This document shows, in pieces, positions 3,065 to 59,018 of a stretch of 64,000 bases of DNA. Positions within the stretch are counted from its first letter, which is position 1. Each line of letters begins with the position of its first letter. The stretch covers positions 1,598 to 65,597 of the forward strand of contig CAZUIH010000002.1 in NCBI GenBank assembly GCA_964620365.1, read 5' to 3'. The position numbers and the translations under genes are program-made. The DNA comes from an uncultured Desulfobacterales bacterium (lineage in GTDB: Bacteria; Desulfobacterota; Dissulfuribacteria; Dissulfuribacterales; S140-46). The notes beneath the pieces were generated by a model, which saw only the letters and a list, made by a program, of their open reading frames with translations, searched no databases and had not been told where the DNA came from.

Positions 3065-3173
3065 GCGATACCTCTTTCTGGCAAGGTTATGAATTTAAAA
3101 CAAACAATTGAAGTACAAGAAGTAGGACTACTTCATGCCTCCCGCCTCGCATCTTCGGCGAACTAACCGACTC

Positions 3174-3186
3174 TATAATCCGGTGG
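3174..3186. repeat. solo copy of the family-1 terminal 12-mer (TATAATCCGGTGG)
   Basis: Matches the ATAATCCGGGTT end of the repeat family with 2 mismatches. It lies about 110 nt upstream of ATG 3064. Confidence 0.35.
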
Positions 3187-5981: not shown

Positions 5982-6734
5982 TTAGCTTTCTGGTCGTACC
6001 ATGATTTTCTGGGCTAAACCAAGTCCAACGGCCAGCCTTGAACCCTTCACACTCAAAATCATAGGACCTGATTTATTCAATACCTCCACTTCGTCTCCGA
6101 CCACAAGGCCCATGTCCTGAAGCCTTCCGCGGACACTCTTTCCACCTGAGAAACTGACTATCTTGACCTTTTCACCTACCGCAGCCATGGACAGAGGCAT
6201 TGCTGAAACCTCTTTTTTCCTGCAACTCGAACAAAGTCCCAGCACAGTCAGCTTATGAAGTACAGGTTCAAATCCATGTTGCCTGGCAGCTCGCTTGGTC
6301 AACTCTCCGATATCGGATTCATTGAATTCCACAATCTTTCCACATCCTGTACAAAGCAGGTGATCATGATCACCTCCAAGATGAAGGTGCTCATACCAGG
6401 CCCCTGATCCGTTCAGCTGAGTCCGTTGCGCGATACCGTATCGGCAAAGGACCTCAAGGACGTCCCTGACCGTATCCAGGTCCACGGAATGACCGGCCTC
6501 AGCAAGCTTTTCCTGTATGAACTCAGGGGAAATATGCCCTTCGATGCCCAAAAAACAGTCAAGCACCAAATTACCATTTTCAGGCAAGACCTCGCCCGTC
6601 TGAGCCAACAACCTGTGAAAATCGTCCTTTTCCCGCTGATGAAGAGAATCAACTTCATCTTGGGTGCATGAGATGTCAACTGACTCACTCCCCTTACAAC
6701 AATCGTTCTCTTTTTTTCTCCTTCGGAACCACAT
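5982..6734 (-). CDS. Fur-family regulator fused to a C-terminal FeoA domain
   Basis: Fur-type metal and Zn sites (HLHLGGDHDHLLCTGCGKIVEF, GLCSSCRKK). These are followed by a FeoA-like SH3 segment (VGEKVKIVSFSGGKSVRGRLQDMGLVVGDEVEVLNKSGPMILSVKGSRLAVGLGLAQKIMV). Confidence 0.75.
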   Translation of the reverse strand: MWFRRRKKENDCCKGSESVDISCTQDEVDSLHQREKDDFHRLLAQTGEVLPENGNLVLDCFLGIEGHISPEFIQEKLAEAGHSVDLDTVRDVLEVLCRYGIAQRTQLNGSGAWYEHLHLGGDHDHLLCTGCGKIVEFNESDIGELTKRAARQHGFEPVLHKLTVLGLCSSCRKKEVSAMPLSMAAVGEKVKIVSFSGGKSVRGRLQDMGLVVGDEVEVLNKSGPMILSVKGSRLAVGLGLAQKIMVRPES

Positions 6735-6956
6735 GAGTATAAATCAATCTCCTGTTCACATCTATTTTTGATGGCATTAAAATTTTACTTATTTCTTTTA
6801 CCAGGTCCGCTCCCTTTTGGTTAGGGGCATAATCCTGACACAAAGGGACGAATCTATCGGGATATACTAAACTTATTGAGACAAAATTACAACAATCACC
6901 ACACATCACCATATCTTTTCCCGAATTAATACAATTACCGGAAATCCCGAAAATTC

Positions 6957-7027
6957 AACCGGGATTACGCACTTAACATGCTGCAGAAATTATTTTTTAA
7001 TAAAACAAGCGAGTAAATGATAGAGGA
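6957..7027. repeat. family-1 repeat, copy D (left end plus internal block; right end missing)
   Basis: AACCGGGATTACGCACTTAAC, then TTATTTTTTAATAAAACAAGCGAGTAAATGATAGAG. The latter aligns with the internal block of copy C. Confidence 0.6.
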
Positions 7028-8198: not shown

Positions 8199-8353
8199 AA
8201 CCCGAATTACGCACTTCAACTATCCAAGGAATATTTTTTCTTATTAAAATCATTAAATTAACAGCAGGTTTTCTGTGAAAAATCTTCACCCAAAAGGTGC
8301 AACAAGTTATGTCCGGATTTCCTTGCAAACTTATCAACTGCATAATCCGGGTT
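8199..8353. repeat. family-1 repeat, copy A (155 bp)
   Basis: Left end AACCCGAATTACGCACTTCAAC, right end ATAATCCGGGTT. These form inverted termini. Confidence 0.65.
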
Positions 8354-9546: not shown

Positions 9547-10287
9547 TTACCTGTCTTGATACTTATTTTCAAAGTATGGACACAGTTCCATCCTGCAACC
9601 GTGGGGATGACGCTCTATGTGTCTGCAAGACGAAATGTTGGTCGAACCACCCAGATACAACCCAAAATTGGCCGCAAAAAATTTTACAGCCTCGTCAATG
9701 GCACTCCTCACATAAGCCTTACAGCAACTAGGCCCGGTAAGTTCCTTTATCGCCAGAGCCACAGAACATGCCATGTCCATGGCAAGATACTGTTCTTCAT
9801 TACTGCCACACTTAGAAGAAAGGATAACAGCCACACAGGCCCCCATGGCCACCACTATGCCGCAAACTCCCGTAAGGCCGCAATATCCGCTTATTGCCTG
9901 CCTTTGGATGCGGTCAAAAACCTCTTCCATGTGCGAATCACGCACTCTTATTGTACCTTCATTTTTTAGGGCCGCAATTAATGAACCCGCCGCGATATAC
10001 GCATGGTGGCACCCAAGCATTGGCAGAGAAGGAATGTTAATGAGATATTCAGAGATCTCAAACGGGTCAGCAGAATCAGATGCAAGGCAATATTCCCTTA
10101 TTACTCGCAGGGACTCTTTATTGTGACAATTTTCACACAAGAAATGTCCATTGGGACAGACCACATGGCCTGATTCTACCCTGCCACACCTGGTACACCT
10201 GTACTCGTGACCATATTCCAGGTAAGTAAGCGGGCTGCCACAGACCATGCAGTTATCCACTACCGCCATCCTGCCTGGCACTTTCAA
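9547..10287 (-). CDS. Cys-rich conserved hypothetical protein with N-terminal zinc ribbon (possibly DUF5714-like)
   Basis: CMVCGSPL...CTRCG...CPNGHFLCENC ribbon, followed by a Cys-rich helical body. The family name is from memory only. Confidence 0.45.
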   Translation of the reverse strand: MKVPGRMAVVDNCMVCGSPLTYLEYGHEYRCTRCGRVESGHVVCPNGHFLCENCHNKESLRVIREYCLASDSADPFEISEYLINIPSLPMLGCHHAYIAAGSLIAALKNEGTIRVRDSHMEEVFDRIQRQAISGYCGLTGVCGIVVAMGACVAVILSSKCGSNEEQYLAMDMACSVALAIKELTGPSCCKAYVRSAIDEAVKFFAANFGLYLGGSTNISSCRHIERHPHGCRMELCPYFENKYQDR

Positions 10288-10402
10288 GTCGTCTGGCTGG
10301 CCCAGCCTCTTTTTCTCATTGTTTCAGCAACCGGTCCGCCGCCTGTCAGGTTTCAAATTTAGAGACATCCTTTTTTGCATTTTTATAACCCGCACTTTTC
10401 AT

Positions 10403-11590
10403 TCAGAAGCCCGCAGCTACCTGGAAGGTCAAGATCAGGTGATCCTGGACAGGAAAGGGGCTACTTTTCTCTTCTTCCTGGTCCACGTAGGTTAAATCAA
10501 CACTAAGCTTGTTTGCCTGGCCCTTCAGGAAATAATTGACTCCAAGGCCGTAGATGTTAGTTGAATCCTTGTTATCGACACCTATACGTTCATAGTGTAT
10601 GAAAGGCTGTACACGCCCTACCCCAACCTTTCCAGGCAAGATATATCCTGATTTTACAGAAACGATGTCTGCGTCATCCCCTTGTTTTAAATTCGTATAA
10701 TTAAGAGAATTGGGGCCACTGTTGACGTTTATGTATGCCGCTTCCATTGTTATGGCACCGCCACTTGGATCCAAGGGATAATCCCAGTGTACATCAACGG
10801 TCCAAGCGGAATAATCATGTCTCGACCCGTCATAAACAAGGTCATTCTGCATATCGAAGCCCATTCCAAGGGCCAGCACCCGCTTTTTACCTAGATAGGT
10901 GCCTTTATTGAACCAGGAGGTCTCTGGCTCGAAAAAGGACCAGCTCAGGCGCCCGGCGTATCTTGGATTGTCGTCTGGATTCATGGTATCCTTATCTATA
11001 CCCTTGGCCACCATGAAACGGTATTGCAGTCTCTTGCCCAGCACGTTCCCCCAGAGGCAAACGCCATCGTCTCTACCAACCTTGCTGGGATAGAAAATAC
11101 CGCCCCTGATACCGCCCTGGCTCCAGTCAAGGTCAGTTGCCAGAAGACTTTTTGTCGACGTGGTACCGTAATTCCTTGTGATCGGCACATACATCCGTCC
11201 CAGTTGTAGCATAGCTGACTCATCCAAAAGCCTGACGGTAACCCAGCCGTCCCTCAATATGAGATTGGCCCCAAGCCCCAGGCTTGGCCTGTCATGCAGC
11301 TCATCCTGGTCCAACCTGTCCCCCGCGACGTGGAGAAAAAAATCAAGCCATGGAGTCGCAGAGGCCTTGGCGTAAAAATAGGCCCGCCTGATCATGGTAT
11401 CATACAGGGCTGTTTCTTGTTTTCCGTCGCCGTCACGGTCCTTGGCATCTTCGACATATTGGTACCAGGCCTGCCCCCAGAACCCCATTTCCAACGAAAG
11501 ATCGCCGTTTTTATAGATCTTAGTGGCCCATGCGTGGTCCGTACAGACAACAACCATAAATAAGAGTGTGACCCAAAACCGTATTTTCAT
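10403..11590 (-). CDS. outer-membrane beta-barrel porin
   Basis: ATG 11590 follows GGAGTGGAGGGAAG. Signal peptide MKIRFWVTLLFMVVVCTDHAWA, alternating beta-strand pattern, and C-terminal ...FQVAAGF ending in Phe. The track start at 11608 is probably too long. Confidence 0.6.
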   Translation of the reverse strand: MKIRFWVTLLFMVVVCTDHAWATKIYKNGDLSLEMGFWGQAWYQYVEDAKDRDGDGKQETALYDTMIRRAYFYAKASATPWLDFFLHVAGDRLDQDELHDRPSLGLGANLILRDGWVTVRLLDESAMLQLGRMYVPITRNYGTTSTKSLLATDLDWSQGGIRGGIFYPSKVGRDDGVCLWGNVLGKRLQYRFMVAKGIDKDTMNPDDNPRYAGRLSWSFFEPETSWFNKGTYLGKKRVLALGMGFDMQNDLVYDGSRHDYSAWTVDVHWDYPLDPSGGAITMEAAYINVNSGPNSLNYTNLKQGDDADIVSVKSGYILPGKVGVGRVQPFIHYERIGVDNKDSTNIYGLGVNYFLKGQANKLSVDLTYVDQEEEKSSPFPVQDHLILTFQVAAGF

Positions 11591-11633
11591 ATCTTCCCTC
11601 CACTCCATCCCAGAGCGGTTACCTCACCGCATC

Positions 11634-11969
11634 CTAATCAGGAATGGGCTCTGCCCCGTGCCTTATGACCGCCTTTAACATCTCATCTTCTGAGGCAACA
11701 CCATTTCCCGCACCCTTGTCTACGGCTATAATTTCATCGTCCACCTTCACGGCAGGCGAAGCGGGATCCTTCGGGCCCATGAGATCCTGGGGAGTGACAA
11801 TAAGCCTGACGCCGGTTACCTGTTCCAGAACGCTTACAGCGGCCTCAAGGTTTCGGGCTCACCGTCCTCCCATTGGAGACCTCGTATACAGCTTTAGATC
11901 AACAGCCTGGGCGGAGATGGTAATTAACAGAACCATCAAAAAAACAGTGAACGCTAAAAAATTTCTCAT
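11634..11969 (-). CDS. secreted thioredoxin-fold protein (MTH895/TM0996-like), candidate selenoprotein (UGA codon 37)
   Basis: ATG 11969 sits 8 nt after AAGGAGGT. Signal peptide MRNFLAFTVFLMVLLITISAQA. TGA at 11861..11859 in SPMGGR-U-ARNLEAAV. The frame then stays open for 74 more codons, including a cis-Pro-like PASPAVKVDDEII and VASEDEMLKAV as in glutaredoxin-like MTH895 proteins. Not present in the ORF track. Confidence 0.55.
11812..11828 (-). other. candidate SECIS-like hairpin for the 11634..11969 gene
   Basis: mRNA sense CUGG-AACAGGUAA-CCGG (4 bp stem including one G.U). It starts 30 nt after the UGA, the same spacing as the 2863..2847 hairpin. Confidence 0.3.
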
Positions 11970-12017
11970 AATAGATACCTCCTTGTTATTAGATAATTTC
12001 ATTAACCAACTACCTTT

Positions 12018-12141
12018 GACCCGATTTATACACTTCAATCACCGAATCTCATGCGTATTCGGCCAGTTGAAAAACCAAGCCACACGGACATGCCCACGGA
12101 CTCAAATCCTAGGCAGTCCTGGCACAGGCATAATCCGGGTT
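12018..12141. repeat. family-1 repeat, copy B (124 bp, internally replaced)
   Basis: Left end GACCCGATTTATACACTTCAATC, right end ATAATCCGGGTT. Carries an internal CCGAAT/ATTCGG hairpin. Ends 49 nt upstream of ATG 11969. Confidence 0.6.
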
Positions 12142-12296
12142 CACATCTGTATGGTTTTAAAAACCAGGCTGTAAACATGCCGACGACCAAAAGGTGACCT
12201 CCAAAAAGCTAAATCTTAGAGGTCCCAATAAGAGACAACACCCAAAGAGCGTCATCGAAAATCCACCTGTGGTCAGGATCGAAGCAGTAGACATAT

Positions 12297-12737
12297 TCAA
12301 TTGTCTCCGCTTCTTTTGAGTAAAAAATGGACACTCTCTTCAGGCAACTTCAGCTGCCTTGCGATTTCCGTAGTCGAGGCACCTGGATTTTCCTTGATAA
12401 AATGTTCACACTCGGCTCGCACCATATCCAGCCAATCCTGGAACAAGACCACAAGTTCCTCCGAGGTTTCGGACGAAAGCTCATGGAGTATTCCCATTGC
12501 CCCGTAAAGATGATGACACATGTTTTGTGGATCGACACCTTCATCCATGCATTTGGCAATTCAGAGCTGAACCATACTGCCGATCTTGTCTTTTCCTGTT
12601 TGCCCCACCATCTCCACTACAAAGCTTCTTTTTTCTTCTTCAGAAAGAATGGAAAAGATCTCTTTGGCCAGATGGAGTAATAGATCCTTGCCCTCTTCCA
12701 AGGTCAATGACCTGATAATGTCACCCCATTTATCCAT
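12297..12737 (-). CDS. small helical protein with C-terminal HTH-like segment, candidate selenoprotein (UGA codon 59, U-x-x-x-C)
   Basis: ATG 12737 overlaps the arsR stop (TAATG). The frame is identical to track ORF 12297..12548 (189 nt = 63 codons upstream). The single TGA is at 12563..12561, in GSMVQL-U-IAKCMDEG. There is no SD in front of the internal ATG 12548. Confidence 0.5.
12528..12547 (-). other. candidate SECIS-like hairpin for the 12297..12737 gene
   Basis: mRNA sense UGGAU-GA-AGGUG-UCG-AUCCA: 5 bp outer stem plus 2 inner pairs, with an AGGUG apical loop. The stem starts 13 nt after the UGA and GGU lies about 22 nt after it. Confidence 0.4.
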
Positions 12738-13111
12738 TATTCCTCTCCTTTCGTTTGCTCTTGCTCCTGGATTATTCTCTTCACTTCAGCCACGAGAGCT
12801 GATTCGTCCAGGTCTGGATTTATTTCAGCGACCGCCCTTCCAAGAAATTTCAAAAGTCCTTTTGAGGCCAACCGGTAGTAGATAAATGGTCCTCTTCGTT
12901 CACTGACCAAGATATTCGCGTACCTGAATTCCTTTAGATGATGAGACACAAGGGGCTGAGACAATCCAAGACGATTGACTATCTCTGTCACAGAAAGAAA
13001 ACCACATTTCTCCAACGCGATACAAAGGATAATTTTTAATCGATTTTCATCGGATAGCGACTTGAAAAAATGCGCAAGCTCCTTGATAACGATTTTATTT
13101 GACCAGCCCAT
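12737..13111 (-). CDS. ArsR/SmtB-family transcriptional regulator
   Basis: wHTH segment LSVTEIVNRLGLSQPLVSHHLKEFRYANILVSERRGPFIYYRL; 124 aa. Confidence 0.85.
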   Translation of the reverse strand: MGWSNKIVIKELAHFFKSLSDENRLKIILCIALEKCGFLSVTEIVNRLGLSQPLVSHHLKEFRYANILVSERRGPFIYYRLASKGLLKFLGRAVAEINPDLDESALVAEVKRIIQEQEQTKGEE

Positions 13112-13270
13112 AAAATAAATATATCAATGTACATTTATATGTCAATGACGCAGTTGACCCTTCTATACGACAGGTCTTTGGAACAGGACAAGTTGTGCGA
13201 TTCAACTTGACTTGCCACTGACCCACCAGTAGTAACTTATAGTTACGTGAATGTATATTGCTGGAGCTTT

Positions 13271-13527
13271 GAATCCGGAGTATGCACGTAAAATGCCGAA
13301 AAATGATTTTTTATTTATAAAACAAGCGAGTTACTGTTCAATAATAGAGAAAAACATTTCCACAAATGGAGCATCAACGTCACGCTACTTTTTTGGCATT
13401 TAAAGCCGCAGCGGGCTGCCGACTTTATCGGATCTGCCGCGTTGTCAGAGACTTGAAGTAGAAGAGTATGTATGCGTGTCTGCCGTCTTGCAACTTCGAC
13501 AAACTCGGCAGCTACATAATCCGGGTT
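13271..13527. repeat. family-1 repeat, copy C (257 bp, longest)
   Basis: Left end GAATCCGGAGTATGCACG, right end ATAATCCGGGTT. The right approximately 135 nt align with copy E. The internal block GAAAAATGATTTTTTATTTATAAAACAAGCGAGT aligns with copies D and E. Confidence 0.65.
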
Positions 13528-13573: not shown

Positions 13574-14029
13574 ATGAACAAGAAATCTGAACTCCAGGTG
13601 TTCCGGGAATACCTGCAAAAACATAAGCTTAGATATACCAGGGAACGTGAACAGATCATAAAGGAAATCTTCTCAACCCATGACCATTTCGATGTTGAGG
13701 CCATATATTTATCCATGAGGCAGAAAGGAATCCAGGTATCAAAGGCCTCTATCTACCGGCTGATTCCCTTGTTGATCGAAACTGGACTCATACAGGAAGT
13801 CTACTATGAAGATGGCCACATGCACTATGAACATGTGTATGGCCATGAACATCATTGTCATCTACGATGTACCAGGTGTAGAAAAATCGAAGAGTTCGTT
13901 GATCGCAGACTCCAAGAGATAGAAAAAGACCTGGCTGAAAAGTTTGGTTATGAAATAATAGATCGAAAGCTTGAAGTAAAAGGTCTATGTCCTGAATGCA
14001 GGGAAAAGGTTAAAAACAAAAACAGCTAG
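13574..14029 (+). CDS. Fur-family metalloregulator (Fur/Zur/PerR type not resolved)
   Basis: HEHHCHLRCTRCRKIEEF and C-terminal CPECREK zinc-site motifs; 151 aa. Confidence 0.85.
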   Translation: MNKKSELQVFREYLQKHKLRYTREREQIIKEIFSTHDHFDVEAIYLSMRQKGIQVSKASIYRLIPLLIETGLIQEVYYEDGHMHYEHVYGHEHHCHLRCTRCRKIEEFVDRRLQEIEKDLAEKFGYEIIDRKLEVKGLCPECREKVKNKNS

Positions 14030-58817: not shown

Positions 58818-59018
58818 AACCCGGATTATCCACTTCAACTGTCGAAAAATGATCTTTTATGCATCAACATCATGCCATGTTTTGGGCATTTTAGCCGCCA
58901 AGGACTGCCTATTTCCCGAATCTGTCTTGTTATCAGGCAGTTGAAGAATAATAATACGTCCACGTCTCTCTGACGCCCTTGCGGCTTCGACAAACGCAGC
59001 AACTTTATAATCCGGGTT
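58818..59018. repeat. family-1 repeat, copy E (201 bp, full length)
   Basis: Left end AACCCGGATTATCCACTTCAAC, right end ATAATCCGGGTT: a perfect 12 bp inverted terminal pair. Starts 25 nt upstream of the cooC-like GTG. Confidence 0.7.

What the first reader, a model, noticed from the sequence alone, without database searches (positions are those of the whole stretch)
10403..13111. ArsR - Sec protein - secreted Sec thioredoxin-fold protein - porin: a possible redox or oxyanion handling module
On the minus strand the order is as follows:
- arsR
- a translationally coupled 146-aa U-x-x-x-C protein with an HTH-like tail
- a family-1 repeat copy
- a 111-aa secreted MTH895-like thioredoxin-fold protein with Sec
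- 44 nt later, an outer-membrane porin

ArsR next to MTH895/TM0996-type redox-active proteins is a recurring arrangement in anaerobes, by my recollection. Here both small proteins appear to use Sec, and one is exported next to a porin.

That combination would fit a periplasmic reductive handling system for a metalloid or other electrophile. The substrate is pure speculation.
Basis: inference. Interest (0 to 1): 0.6.

Follow-up and report, generated by a model that had tools for sequence, protein, structure and literature searches.

The report
Selenoprotein and porin chalcogen-handling gene cluster
This is a small gene cluster in a sulfate-reducer-type bacterium that pairs an ArsR-type regulator and two selenocysteine proteins (one exported) with an outer-membrane porin of the selenite-uptake ExtI family; it is a divergent, rearranged version of the recently catalogued "Tso" selenoprotein neighbourhood, not a new kind of system.

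Summary
On the minus strand lie an ArsR-family gene, an overlapping (TAATG) 146-aa gene with an in-frame TGA (L-U-I-A-K-C), a 260-nt spacer, a 111-aa gene with a signal peptide and an in-frame TGA (S-P-M-G-G-R-U), and a porin 43 nt later. A DUF5714 gene follows and belongs to the cluster.

- **Sec calls.** Both are supported by comparison. The TGA is kept in every relative found, both sides are conserved, and the exported protein has a Cys-containing homologue.
- **Family assignments (NCBIfam).** The genes sit beside known families but below every curated cut-off: TsoR, TsoA, distantly TsoC, and porin ExtI (selenite/tellurite).
- **Exported protein.** It is predicted to have a thioredoxin fold. 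It is not an MTH895/Thioredoxin_3 member by sequence. Its Cys-form is fused to TsoB-like rhodaneses, and its Nitrospirota relatives sit next to periplasmic rhodanese and a molybdoenzyme.
- **Porin relatives.** They lie within 8 kb of YedE in 24 of 80 species and of SelD in 13 of 80.
- **Synteny.** It is only partial. ArsR–TsoA–(DsrE-like selenoprotein)–porin recurs; the exported protein next to the porin is unique to this organism.

Most likely function: uptake and periplasmic handling of selenium or sulfur. Verdict: new variant of a known kind, moderate interest.

The parts
13118..13145 (-). sigma-70-like promoter TTGACA-16-TATATT. It ends 6 nt before the arsR ATG, which suggests a leaderless-type transcript.
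   Evidence: 11 of 12 matches plus a TG extension.
13122..13139 (.). 18-bp palindrome TATAAATGTACATTGATA in the promoter spacer. Candidate operator of the TsoR-like repressor.
   Evidence: the only good match in the window; the same 7-4-7 palindrome TATAAAT-N4-ATTTATA lies upstream of the ArsR gene in L007, L092, L094 and L095.
12737..13111 (-). ArsR/SmtB-family regulator, TsoR-like, 124 aa.
   Evidence: HTH_5. NF033788 71 bits, above the cut-off of 55; TsoR NF045707 88 bits, below the cut-off of 115.
12297..12737 (-). 146-aa cytoplasmic selenoprotein, TsoA-like. Sec codon at 12563..12561, motif LUIAKC. The start overlaps the arsR stop (TAATG).
   Evidence: seleno_TsoA 124 bits, below the cut-off of 170; the TGA is kept in L007, L016, L019, L092, L094 and L095, with conservation on both sides.
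12529..12546 (-). Short conserved hairpin GGAU..AUCC with an AGGUG-type loop, beginning 14 nt after the UGA. Candidate bacterial SECIS.
   Evidence: 4 invariant pairs and no covariation, so compatible but not decisive.
12196..12224 (-). Terminator-like hairpin after the TsoA-like stop.
12101..12141 (.). Weak copy of an intergenic repeat family (core AACCCGGATTATG on the minus strand).
11634..11969 (-). 111-aa exported selenoprotein, distantly TsoC-like. Signal peptide at 11969..11904, Sec codon at 11861..11859, motif SPMGGR-U-xx-N. Predicted thioredoxin fold.
   Evidence: in-frame TGA plus signal peptide in L087, L088, L089 and L091; the Cys form P0127; fold. TsoC is the only recurring family.
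11831..11841 (-). Small hairpin CGC-UGUAA-GCG, 20 nt after the UGA. Weak SECIS candidate.
   Evidence: 3 pairs and no covariation.
10403..11590 (-). Outer-membrane porin of the ExtI branch of the OprO/P-like family, 395 aa from ATG 11590. It has a signal peptide and a C-terminal Phe.
   Evidence: porin_ExtI 135 bits, below the cut-off of 150; 601 homologues, several named ExtI; relatives P0011 and P0020 pass Pfam Porin_O_P.
9547..10287 (-). Cys-rich DUF5714 protein, homologous to the N-terminal half of the double selenoprotein MbdU. Fifth gene of the cluster.
   Evidence: DUF5714 146 bits. MbdU 336 bits over profile positions 37-269 of 468. DUF5714 also lies between TsoA and the porin in L019 and L016.

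Best explanation
This is a chalcogen uptake and trafficking locus. Selenium is the most likely substrate, and sulfane sulfur is possible.

**Regulatory pair (cytoplasm).**
- A TsoR-like ArsR/SmtB repressor sits on an 18-bp palindrome inside its own promoter.
- It is co-translated with a TsoA-like selenoprotein whose U-x-x-x-C pair and weak HTH-like tail suggest a redox or chalcogen-sensing partner.

**Envelope unit (downstream).**
- An ExtI-family outer-membrane porin admits selenite or polysulfide-type anions to the periplasm.
- There an exported 9.5-kDa thioredoxin-fold protein with a single selenocysteine attacks them. Arg-Sec-x-x-Asn is invariant and there is no resolving Cys.
- The protein would carry the Se or S atom as a Se-Se or Se-S adduct. 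It would hand it to a rhodanese-type or inner-membrane partner encoded elsewhere.
- The Cys-rich DUF5714 protein is a cytoplasmic accessory of unknown role.

**Shown:** gene order, in-frame TGAs, family relationships, conservation, neighbourhood statistics.
**Inferred:** substrate, direction of flow, the carrier chemistry, and regulation of the envelope genes by the ArsR protein.
For: **Sec calls.**
- The TsoA-like TGA and both flanks are conserved in six other loci at 29-58% identity.
- For the exported protein, in-frame TGA plus signal peptide is present in L087, L088, L089/L090 and L091.
- A Cys aligns with the U in P0127: 41% identity over 107 aa spanning the site.
- All 29 database relatives are post-TGA fragments of 48-81 aa, as expected when gene callers stop at Sec.

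**Family links.** NCBIfam best hits are TsoR, TsoA, TsoC and ExtI. TsoC is the only family hit by several members of the exported-protein family, 3 of 6, best E 5.7e-5.

**Link to sulfur/selenium transfer.**
- The Cys form is fused to two rhodanese domains whose best NCBIfam hit is TsoB.
- In L088, L089 and L091 the exported Sec protein is followed by a secreted 113-116-aa protein. After that come a periplasmic double rhodanese and a type II DMSO-reductase-family alpha/beta pair.

**Porin.**
- ExtI is needed for selenite/tellurite reduction in G. sulfurreducens (PMC5877670).
- Among 80 species-level loci of porin relatives, YedE lies within 8 kb in 24. YedE is the putative selenium transporter (TIGR04112, 494 bits).
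- SelD (TIGR00476, 359 bits) lies within 8 kb in 13 of the 80, including immediately downstream.

**Linkage of regulator and porin.**
- L007 has ArsR–TsoA–DsrE-like selenoprotein–porin with gaps of at most 25 nt between TsoA, the DsrE-like gene and the porin.
- L016 and L019 have TsoA, DUF5714 and TsoX upstream of the porin.
- L029 has TsoX just downstream of the porin.

**Fold.** The topology is beta-alpha-beta-beta-beta-alpha, with the Cys/Sec in the first turn of helix 1. Foldseek top hits are almost all thioredoxins, TM 0.55-0.64.

**Operator.** It is conserved in five loci.
Against: - All four NCBIfam hits are below the curated cut-offs.
- The exported protein is found next to an ExtI-like porin only in this organism.
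- A terminator-like hairpin and a 260-nt spacer separate the two halves. The operator is absent from the spacer.
- No SelD, YedE, rhodanese or TsoB gene lies in the 64-kb window. No tRNA-Sec does either, so Sec competence of the host is not shown directly.
- SECIS-like hairpins are short, show no covariation, and could follow from the conserved amino acids.
- The structural models are of modest confidence: pLDDT 54 and 65.
- The rhodanese, DsrE and ExtKL/MccSep associations fit sulfur as well as selenium.
Confidence: 0.5

Rival explanations
1. The locus handles sulfur, not selenium. The porin would import polysulfide or thiosulfate. The exported selenoprotein would be a periplasmic sulfane-sulfur carrier, like Sud, feeding a sulfur reductase or a detoxification route.
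For: - Partners of the exported-protein family are rhodaneses and a DMSO-reductase-family enzyme.
- DsrE/TusC-like proteins sit upstream of related porins.
- The ext cluster that contains ExtI also encodes MccSep, a polysulfide reductase. The outer-membrane route for polysulfide is stated to be unknown (PMC13510729).
Against: - YedE and SelD are strongly enriched next to the porin family.
- ExtI has experimental links to selenite/tellurite.
- The window contains no sulfur-respiration genes.
Confidence: 0.2
2. These are two unrelated units that happen to be adjacent. One is an autoregulated arsR–tsoA pair. The other is a separately transcribed unit of exported protein, porin and DUF5714, with no shared regulation or function.
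For: - A terminator-like hairpin and a repeat insertion lie in the 260-nt spacer.
- The operator occurs only at the arsR promoter.
- In other genomes the exported protein is never beside the porin or beside TsoA.
Against: - ArsR–TsoA is directly followed by a small selenoprotein and an ExtI-like porin in L007.
- TsoA, DUF5714, TsoX and the porin co-occur in L016 and L019.
- All the components belong to selenium- or sulfur-linked families.
Confidence: 0.15
3. This is a metalloid detoxification module for arsenite or tellurite, under a classical ArsR. The selenoproteins would act as reductases.
For: - The regulator is of the ArsR/SmtB family, with Cys30 and Cys36 in the alpha-3 region.
- Loss of ExtI raises sensitivity to selenite and tellurite.
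Against: - No arsB/acr3, arsC, arsM or tellurite-resistance genes lie in the locus.
- The two regulator cysteines are not conserved in the L007 and L016 orthologues.
- The exported protein lacks a resolving Cys.
Confidence: 0.07
4. The TGAs are real stop codons. The locus would then encode four short peptides or decayed genes, not selenoproteins.
For: - SECIS evidence is weak.
- One relative, L084/L085, carries a frameshift.
- Sec machinery is not seen in the window.
Against: - The TGA position is invariant and both flanks are conserved in frame across distant relatives.
- A continuous Cys-containing homologue exists.
- NCBI's curated selenoprotein model TsoA matches along the whole length.
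Confidence: 0.03

Closest known systems
Tso selenoprotein neighbourhood (TsoR NF045707, TsoA NF045695, TsoB NF045694, TsoC NF045708, TsoX NF045809). It is listed in review PMC13188914, which cites Haft & Tolstoy 2025, mSystems 10:e0141724.
   Same: - An ArsR-type regulator is followed by a selenoprotein with an L-U-[LI]-A-x-C motif.
- A small selenoprotein carries a P-x-G-x-x-U motif.
- TsoA, TsoX and DUF5714 relatives co-occur with the same porin family in L016 and L019.
   Different: - Every hit is below the curated cut-off: 88 vs 115, 124 vs 170, 15.7 vs 45.
- There is no TsoB (rhodanese/DsbD fusion) in the window.
- The TsoC-like protein has a signal peptide, and RS replaces NE in the motif.
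- An outer-membrane porin and a DUF5714 gene are attached.
- The primary paper could not be read, so the canonical operon layout is known to me only from family names.
ExtH–ExtI of Geobacter sulfurreducens: a rhodanese-like lipoprotein plus an outer-membrane porin in the extHIJKLMNOPQS cluster.
   Same: The porin is in the same family. NCBIfam porin_ExtI is its only hit, and relatives at 55-61% identity are named ExtI. A periplasmic sulfur/selenium-transfer type protein is encoded directly upstream of the porin.
   Different: - The score is 135 against a cut-off of 150.
- There are no cytochromes, no ExtH rhodanese and no ExtKL/MccSep.
- The upstream partner is a thioredoxin-fold selenoprotein instead of a rhodanese.
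Sud, the periplasmic polysulfide-sulfur transferase that serves polysulfide reductase in Wolinella succinogenes (from my own knowledge).
   Same: The proposed role is the same: a small periplasmic carrier that binds a chalcogen atom on one nucleophilic residue and passes it to a partner. Relatives of the exported protein sit beside rhodanese and a molybdoenzyme.
   Different: The fold differs (thioredoxin-like, not rhodanese), the nucleophile is Sec rather than Cys, and there is no experimental evidence.
MTH895/TM0996-type small thioredoxin-like proteins (Pfam Thioredoxin_3).
   Same: Similar size, and the same predicted beta-alpha-beta-beta-beta-alpha core with the redox residue at the start of helix 1.
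   Different: - There is no Pfam or PDB sequence match.
- The protein has a lone Sec instead of CxxC.
- It is exported.
- Profile comparison with the thioredoxin-like TsoX shows nothing (probability 0.1).
YedE–SelD selenium-assimilation neighbourhoods.
   Same: Relatives of the porin lie within 8 kb of YedE in 24 of 80 species and of SelD in 13 of 80.
   Different: Neither gene is in this window. The link is by family association only.

Membership tests
TsoA (NCBIfam NF045695, LULAxC motif selenoprotein) | Score at or above the curated equivalog cut-off of 170 bits. | tested here: not met
   124 bits, E 5.8e-36. The alignment covers residues 7-142 against profile positions 4-139 of 144.
TsoA (NCBIfam NF045695, LULAxC motif selenoprotein) | An L-U-L-A-x-C motif with Sec encoded by an in-frame TGA. 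| tested here: met
   The window has L-U-I-A-K-C, with Ile in place of the second Leu. The TGA is at 12563..12561 and is kept in L007, L092, L094 and L095. L016 and L019 have Y-U-I-x-E-C.
TsoR (NCBIfam NF045707) | Score at or above 115 bits, and an ArsR/SmtB fold next to TsoA. | tested here: not met
   88 bits, below the cut-off. The general ArsR/SmtB model is passed (71 bits against 55). Adjacency to the TsoA-like gene is met.
TsoC (NCBIfam NF045708, NEPxGxxU motif selenoprotein) | Score at or above 45 bits. | tested here: not met
   The window protein scores 15.7 bits (E 0.011). The best family member is the P0127 N-domain at E 5.7e-5. Three of 6 members hit, and no other family recurs.
TsoC (NCBIfam NF045708, NEPxGxxU motif selenoprotein) | The N-E-P-x-G-x-x-U motif. 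| tested here: inconclusive
   The window has R-S-P-M-G-G-R-U, so P-x-G-x-x-U is kept and N-E is not. The Cys form has N-E-P-Q-S-D-R-C. The Nitrospirota clade has R-E-P-P-K-[MV]-R-U.
Tso operon as a system | Presence of TsoB, the rhodanese/DsbD fusion-like double selenoprotein. | tested here: not met
   tblastn with rhodanese domains finds nothing in the window at E 1e-3. The rest of the genome is not available.
ExtI porin (NCBIfam NF040900) | Score at or above 150 bits. | tested here: not met
   135.3 bits over residues 129-382. Relatives at 55-61% identity are named ExtI by NCBI.
ExtI porin (NCBIfam NF040900) | Location in a selenite/tellurite-reduction (ext) cluster with the ExtH rhodanese and multihaem cytochromes. 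| tested here: not met
   No rhodanese or cytochrome genes flank the porin.
OprO/P-like porins (Pfam PF07396) | A Pfam gathering-score match. | tested here: inconclusive
   The window protein has no hit at E 0.01 or at E 1. Its relatives P0011 and P0020, at 57-61% identity, pass with 38.7 and 42.7 bits against a threshold of 20.9.
MTH895/Thioredoxin_3-type thioredoxin-fold proteins | A sequence-profile match and a CxxC-type active site. | tested here: not met
   There is no Pfam hit and no PDB sequence hit. The protein has a single Sec followed by x-x-Asn.
Thioredoxin fold (structural class) | A beta-alpha-beta / beta-beta-alpha core with the redox residue at the N-terminus of helix 1. | tested here: met
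   The AlphaFold models of the Cys homologue have pLDDT 54-65, so confidence is modest. Foldseek top hits are thioredoxins, TM 0.55-0.64, E 3e-3 to 2e-2.
Bacterial selenoprotein gene | An in-frame UGA with conservation on both sides in relatives. | tested here: met
   This holds for both genes.
Bacterial selenoprotein gene | A Cys-containing homologue aligning at the UGA position. | tested here: met
   Met for the exported protein, through P0127. No Cys homologue was found for the TsoA-like protein; only two database relatives were retrieved, and both are post-TGA fragments, one of them the window's own protein.
Bacterial selenoprotein gene | A SECIS stem-loop 16-37 nt downstream of the UGA with G in the apical loop. 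| tested here: inconclusive
   Short conserved hairpins lie at the expected distance, with loop AGGUG (TsoA-like) and UGUAA (exported protein). The single-sequence folds are no more stable than shuffled sequence, and the aligned hairpins show no covariation.
Bacterial selenoprotein gene | Sec machinery (selA, selB, selC, selD) in the genome. | not testable with these tools
   The window has no tRNA and no SelD. The rest of the genome is not available.

The most novel reading that the evidence does not exclude
The exported thioredoxin-fold selenoprotein would define an undescribed class of periplasmic, Sec-based chalcogen carriers. Such a carrier would work between an outer-membrane channel (ExtI-like here, DUF1302-like in L091) and rhodanese-type acceptors. 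Together with the ExtI–YedE–SelD linkage seen in Desulfobacterota, this would be the missing outer-membrane and periplasmic leg of bacterial selenium acquisition.
Probability: 0.3. Interest if true: 0.7.

Novelty: new variant of a known kind. Interest (0 to 1): 0.5.

Why it matters
How selenium crosses the outer membrane and periplasm on its way to SelD is poorly understood. The same is true for polysulfide on its way to periplasmic reductases, and the MccSep paper says so explicitly.

This locus links three things:
- a porin family with experimental ties to selenite;
- a rare exported selenoprotein whose relatives are fused to, or adjacent to, rhodaneses;
- the catalogued but functionally uncharacterised Tso proteins.

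That gives a concrete, testable candidate for a periplasmic chalcogen carrier. It also suggests that the Tso families act on selenium or sulfur species that arrive through a dedicated channel. The conserved operator gives a handle for finding the inducer.

Tried and rejected
**Family and sequence searches**
- Pfam gave nothing for the exported protein or the porin.
- Rfam and ARAGORN found no RNA family and no tRNA in the window.
- Profile searches of PDB sequences gave only chance hits for the exported protein (hedgehog) and weak HTH hits for the TsoA-like protein.
- hhalign of the exported-protein family against TsoX showed no relation.
- A regex search for P-x-G-x-x-TGA in all 80 porin loci found no further copy.
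- A screen for other TGA-bridged ORFs in the window found no further credible selenoprotein.

- The exact-protein look-up of the 401-aa porin failed because the real start is M7.
I therefore used the 74-aa post-Sec fragment and the natural Cys homologue.
- Haft & Tolstoy 2025 is not in the library.

**Scans with little or no return**
- The first metagenome scan with the exported protein found nothing; an earlier attempt failed for lack of conserved columns.
- The word-indexed search with the TsoA-like protein found only two fragments.

**Structure and regulation**
- Single-sequence SECIS folding was no better than shuffles.
- The operator search found no second site upstream of the exported-protein gene.

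**Rejected idea**
- I considered that the 260-nt spacer holds a decayed DsrE-like gene. tblastn and inspection of the frames showed no trace.

Full report
**1. What is in the sequence**

On the minus strand of 9547..13145 there are five genes.

- **arsR (13111..12737, 124 aa).** It passes Pfam HTH_5 and the NCBIfam ArsR/SmtB model.
- **146-aa gene.** Its ATG overlaps the arsR stop codon (TAATG). It reads through an in-frame TGA at 12563..12561, giving ...SMVQL-U-IAKC-MDEG....
- **260-nt spacer.**
- **111-aa gene (11969..11634).** It has a good Shine-Dalgarno sequence. Its N-terminus, MRNFLAFTVFLMVLLITISAQA, is a typical signal peptide. It has an in-frame TGA at 11861..11859, giving ...YTRSPMGGR-U-ARNLEAAV....
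- **Porin.** 43 nt after the stop, ATG 11590 (GGAGG upstream) opens a 395-aa outer-membrane protein that ends in Phe. This is the form found in the protein database (P0001, 100% identity).
- **DUF5714 gene (10287..9547).** It encodes a Cys-rich protein.

The flanking genes are housekeeping: endonuclease IV, a Fur-family regulator on the other strand, a SpoU methylase.

**2. Are the TGAs selenocysteine codons?**

*The 146-aa protein.*
- NCBI's curated model for the LULAxC-motif selenoprotein TsoA matches end to end: 124 bits, E 5.8e-36.
- Six other loci carry a homologue at 29-58% identity. They are L007, L016, L019, L092, L094 and L095.
- All six keep the TGA at the same column, with conserved sequence on both sides. 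U59, I60, C63, D65, G67 and P70 are invariant in the four-sequence alignment.

*The 111-aa protein.*
- An exhaustive HMMER search of 1.84 billion representatives, using the 74 residues after the TGA, found only eight proteins.
- A profile search found 29. Every one is a 48-81-aa fragment that starts just after the TGA, which is what gene callers produce from a selenoprotein gene.
- I read the DNA of L087, L088, L089/L090 and L091. Each shows a signal peptide, a beta-strand, then P-x-x-x-R-TGA in frame with the fragment.
- One relative, P0127 on L083, has Cys at that column (NEPQSDR-C) in a continuous ORF. It is 41% identical over 107 residues spanning the site.
- One copy, L084/L085, has lost a G in a GGG run and is out of frame.

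*SECIS evidence.* Short hairpins lie 14-20 nt after each UGA and are conserved. They are small, show no covariation, and could follow from the conserved codons. The Sec machinery is not in the window.

I regard both Sec calls as well supported by comparison. The RNA signal and the host's Sec competence remain untested.

**3. What families are these?**

All the NCBIfam best hits belong to recently catalogued selenium-linked families, and every one is below its curated cut-off.

| Gene | Best NCBIfam hit | Score (bits) | Cut-off (bits) |
|---|---|---|---|
| arsR | TsoR | 88 | 115 |
| 146-aa gene | TsoA | 124 | 170 |
| 111-aa gene | TsoC | 15.7 | 45 |
| porin | 'selenite/tellurite reduction operon porin ExtI' | 135 | 150 |

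- The Tso families are listed in a 2026 review, which cites Haft & Tolstoy 2025. I could not read the primary paper. The families are TsoA (LULAxC), TsoB (rhodanese/DsbD fusion), TsoC (NEPxGxxU), TsoX and TsoY.
- The relation of the exported protein to TsoC is distant but probably real. TsoC is the only family hit by several members, 3 of 6, best E 5.7e-5. The motif is also related: RSPMGGRU here, NEPQSDRC in the Cys form, against NEPxGxxU.
- The DUF5714 protein matches the N-terminal half of the 'metal-binding double selenoprotein MbdU' with 336 bits.
- The porin has 601 homologues. Several are named ExtI, and most carry a precomputed Porin_O_P hit. Two relatives pass Pfam Porin_O_P when scanned directly, while the window protein itself does not.

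**4. The exported protein**

- Across six full-length sequences, P32, R36, U/C37 and N40 are invariant. The active site is therefore a lone Sec preceded by Arg, with Asn where a thioredoxin would have its second Cys.
- AlphaFold models of the natural Cys homologue have modest confidence: N-domain pLDDT about 60-86 in the full model, and 64.8 for the domain alone.
- The models give beta1-alpha1-beta2-beta3-beta4-alpha2, with the Cys in the first turn of alpha1.
- Foldseek against the PDB returns almost only thioredoxins, TM 0.55-0.64, E 3e-3 to 2e-2.
- The thioredoxin-fold idea is therefore supported at fold level. Membership of the MTH895/Thioredoxin_3 family is not: there are no Pfam or PDB sequence hits, and no profile relation to the thioredoxin-like TsoX.

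*Context of the family.*
- In P0127 the domain is fused to two rhodanese domains whose best NCBIfam match is TsoB (98 bits).
- L088, L089 (a Nitrospirota MAG) and L091 share one gene order.
- That order is: the Sec protein, a secreted 113-116-aa protein, a periplasmic double rhodanese, and then a type II DMSO-reductase-family alpha subunit (TIGR03479, 954 bits) with its Fe-S beta subunit.
- L091 also has a DUF1302-type outer-membrane protein just upstream.
- The family is thus periplasmic and tied to sulfur/selenium transferases.

**5. The porin family and synteny**

I fetched 80 species-level loci of porin relatives at 46-60% identity. They are mostly Desulfobacterota/Thermodesulfobacteriota-type MAGs, plus a cultured Thermodesulfatator strain.

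- YedE lies within the 8-kb flanks in 24 loci. This is the 'YedE family putative selenium transporter' (494 bits against a cut-off of 200).
- SelD lies within the flanks in 13 loci (359 bits against 125). In eight cases one of the two is the immediate downstream gene.
- For single-copy genes in genomes of several megabases this is far above chance (my inference).
- It agrees with the experimental link of ExtI to selenite/tellurite (PMC5877670).
- The same ext cluster encodes MccSep, a polysulfide reductase that also reduces selenite. Its authors note that the outer-membrane route for polysulfide is unknown (PMC13510729).

The four-gene arrangement itself is not conserved.

- **L007** has ArsR, TsoA (LUIAKC), a DsrE-like selenoprotein and the porin, tightly packed. 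The DsrE label rests on Pfam DsrE at 19.9 bits, just under threshold.
- **L003, L004 and L037**, the other closest porins, also have the DsrE-like selenoprotein directly upstream.
- **L092 and L095** have ArsR–TsoA–DsrE-like before the contig ends.
- **L016 and L019** have TsoA, DUF5714 and a bona fide TsoX (129 bits against 52) upstream of the porin. L029 has TsoX just downstream.
- **L011, L013, L021 and L038** have ArsR or ArsR-rhodanese fusions, rhodanese and DsrE near the porin.

The exported TsoC-like protein lies next to an ExtI-like porin only in this organism, that is, in the window and its metagenome twins L001 and L086. The theme 'ArsR + TsoA + small S/Se-transfer selenoprotein + ExtI-like porin' therefore recurs. 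The third gene is interchangeable, and here it is a periplasmic one.

**6. Regulation**

- A near-consensus promoter, TTGACA-16-TATATT, ends 6 nt before the arsR ATG.
- Its spacer is filled by the palindrome TATAAATGTACATTGATA.
- The same 7-4-7 palindrome, TATAAAT-N4-ATTTATA, lies upstream of the ArsR gene in L007, L092, L094 and L095. It occurs only once in the window. This is a good candidate operator for autoregulation.
- After the TsoA-like stop there is a terminator-like hairpin and a weak copy of an intergenic repeat.
- No operator precedes the exported-protein gene. Whether the envelope genes are controlled by this ArsR protein is open.

**7. Most likely mechanism**

*Shown:* the parts and their family ties.

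*Inferred:*
- The porin lets selenite, or polysulfide-type anions, into the periplasm.
- The exported protein's selenolate attacks them and carries the chalcogen as a Se-Se or Se-S adduct.
- It passes the atom to a rhodanese-type acceptor or an inner-membrane transporter encoded elsewhere.
- The ArsR/TsoA pair senses the cytoplasmic state and sets expression.

Selenium is favoured by the YedE/SelD enrichment and the ExtI experiments. Sulfur is favoured by the rhodanese, DsrE and MccSep links. I put about 0.5 on the chalcogen uptake and carrier reading with selenium as first choice, 0.2 on a sulfur-specific role, 0.15 on two functionally separate units, and less on metalloid detoxification or on the TGAs being stops.

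**8. Novelty and verdict**

- The component families are already catalogued (the Tso families, ExtI), so this is not a new kind of system.
- It is a divergent variant. All members fall below the equivalog cut-offs, TsoB is absent, the TsoC-like protein is exported, and an ExtI-like porin and DUF5714 are attached.
- I could not find two things described in the papers available to me: the rare exported clade with its rhodanese fusion and molybdoenzyme context, and the strong ExtI–YedE–SelD linkage. I cannot exclude that Haft & Tolstoy 2025 covers part of this.
- Interest is moderate (0.5). The locus gives a testable candidate for the periplasmic step of selenium or sulfur acquisition.

Noticed in passing
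window 13371-13527, 58861-59018, 12101-12141, 8326-8353, 6954-7014, 3146-3186: An intergenic repeat family with the invariant core AACCCGGATTATG (minus strand). The two long copies are 72% identical over 160 nt. It has no Rfam match, folds only slightly better than shuffles (z -1.7), and the flanking genes are unrelated (ParA-like, FolE2, FtsK, HD, Fur-family).
   Followed up: partly
window 13111-13145: The arsR promoter's -10 hexamer ends 6 nt before the ATG and no Shine-Dalgarno is present. The regulator is probably translated from a leaderless or near-leaderless mRNA.
   Followed up: no
L003-L082 (80 loci of ExtI-like porins): YedE, the putative selenium transporter, lies within 8 kb of the porin in 24 of 80 species and SelD in 13 of 80. 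A YjeF-C-like gene is the immediate upstream neighbour in 15 of 67 loci. This suggests that the porin family as a whole serves selenium acquisition in Desulfobacterota.
   Followed up: partly
L089 8552-11318: In the Nitrospirota MAG the type II DMSO-reductase alpha subunit is called as two genes (508 + 400 aa). L088 and L091 have one gene of 918-921 aa. This may be a frameshift, an assembly error or a recoding event.
   Followed up: no
L084 7870-8200 and L085: A close relative of the exported selenoprotein keeps the TGA but has a 1-nt deletion in the GGG run just upstream. The signal peptide is therefore out of frame. The same change appears in two metagenome samples, so it is a pseudogene or a shared error. 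This copy lies beside aprAB/qmo genes and not beside a porin.
   Followed up: partly
L003, L004, L007, L037 (directly upstream of the porin); L092, L095: A 105-aa DsrE-like protein with an in-frame TGA (…LFA-U-GKCLDLHG…) is the usual gene between TsoA and the porin, or directly upstream of the porin. It matches no NCBIfam model and sits just under the Pfam DsrE threshold.
   Followed up: partly
window 9547-10287: The DUF5714 protein after the porin is homologous to the N-terminal half of the double selenoprotein MbdU (336 bits) but lacks the Sec-bearing C-terminal half. DUF5714 also lies between TsoA and TsoX in L019, with a fragment in L016.
   Followed up: partly
window 5982-6734 and 13574-14029: Two Fur-family genes lie within 8 kb. 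One is a Fur–FeoA fusion. The other is divergently placed from arsR, with a long repeat copy in between.
   Followed up: no
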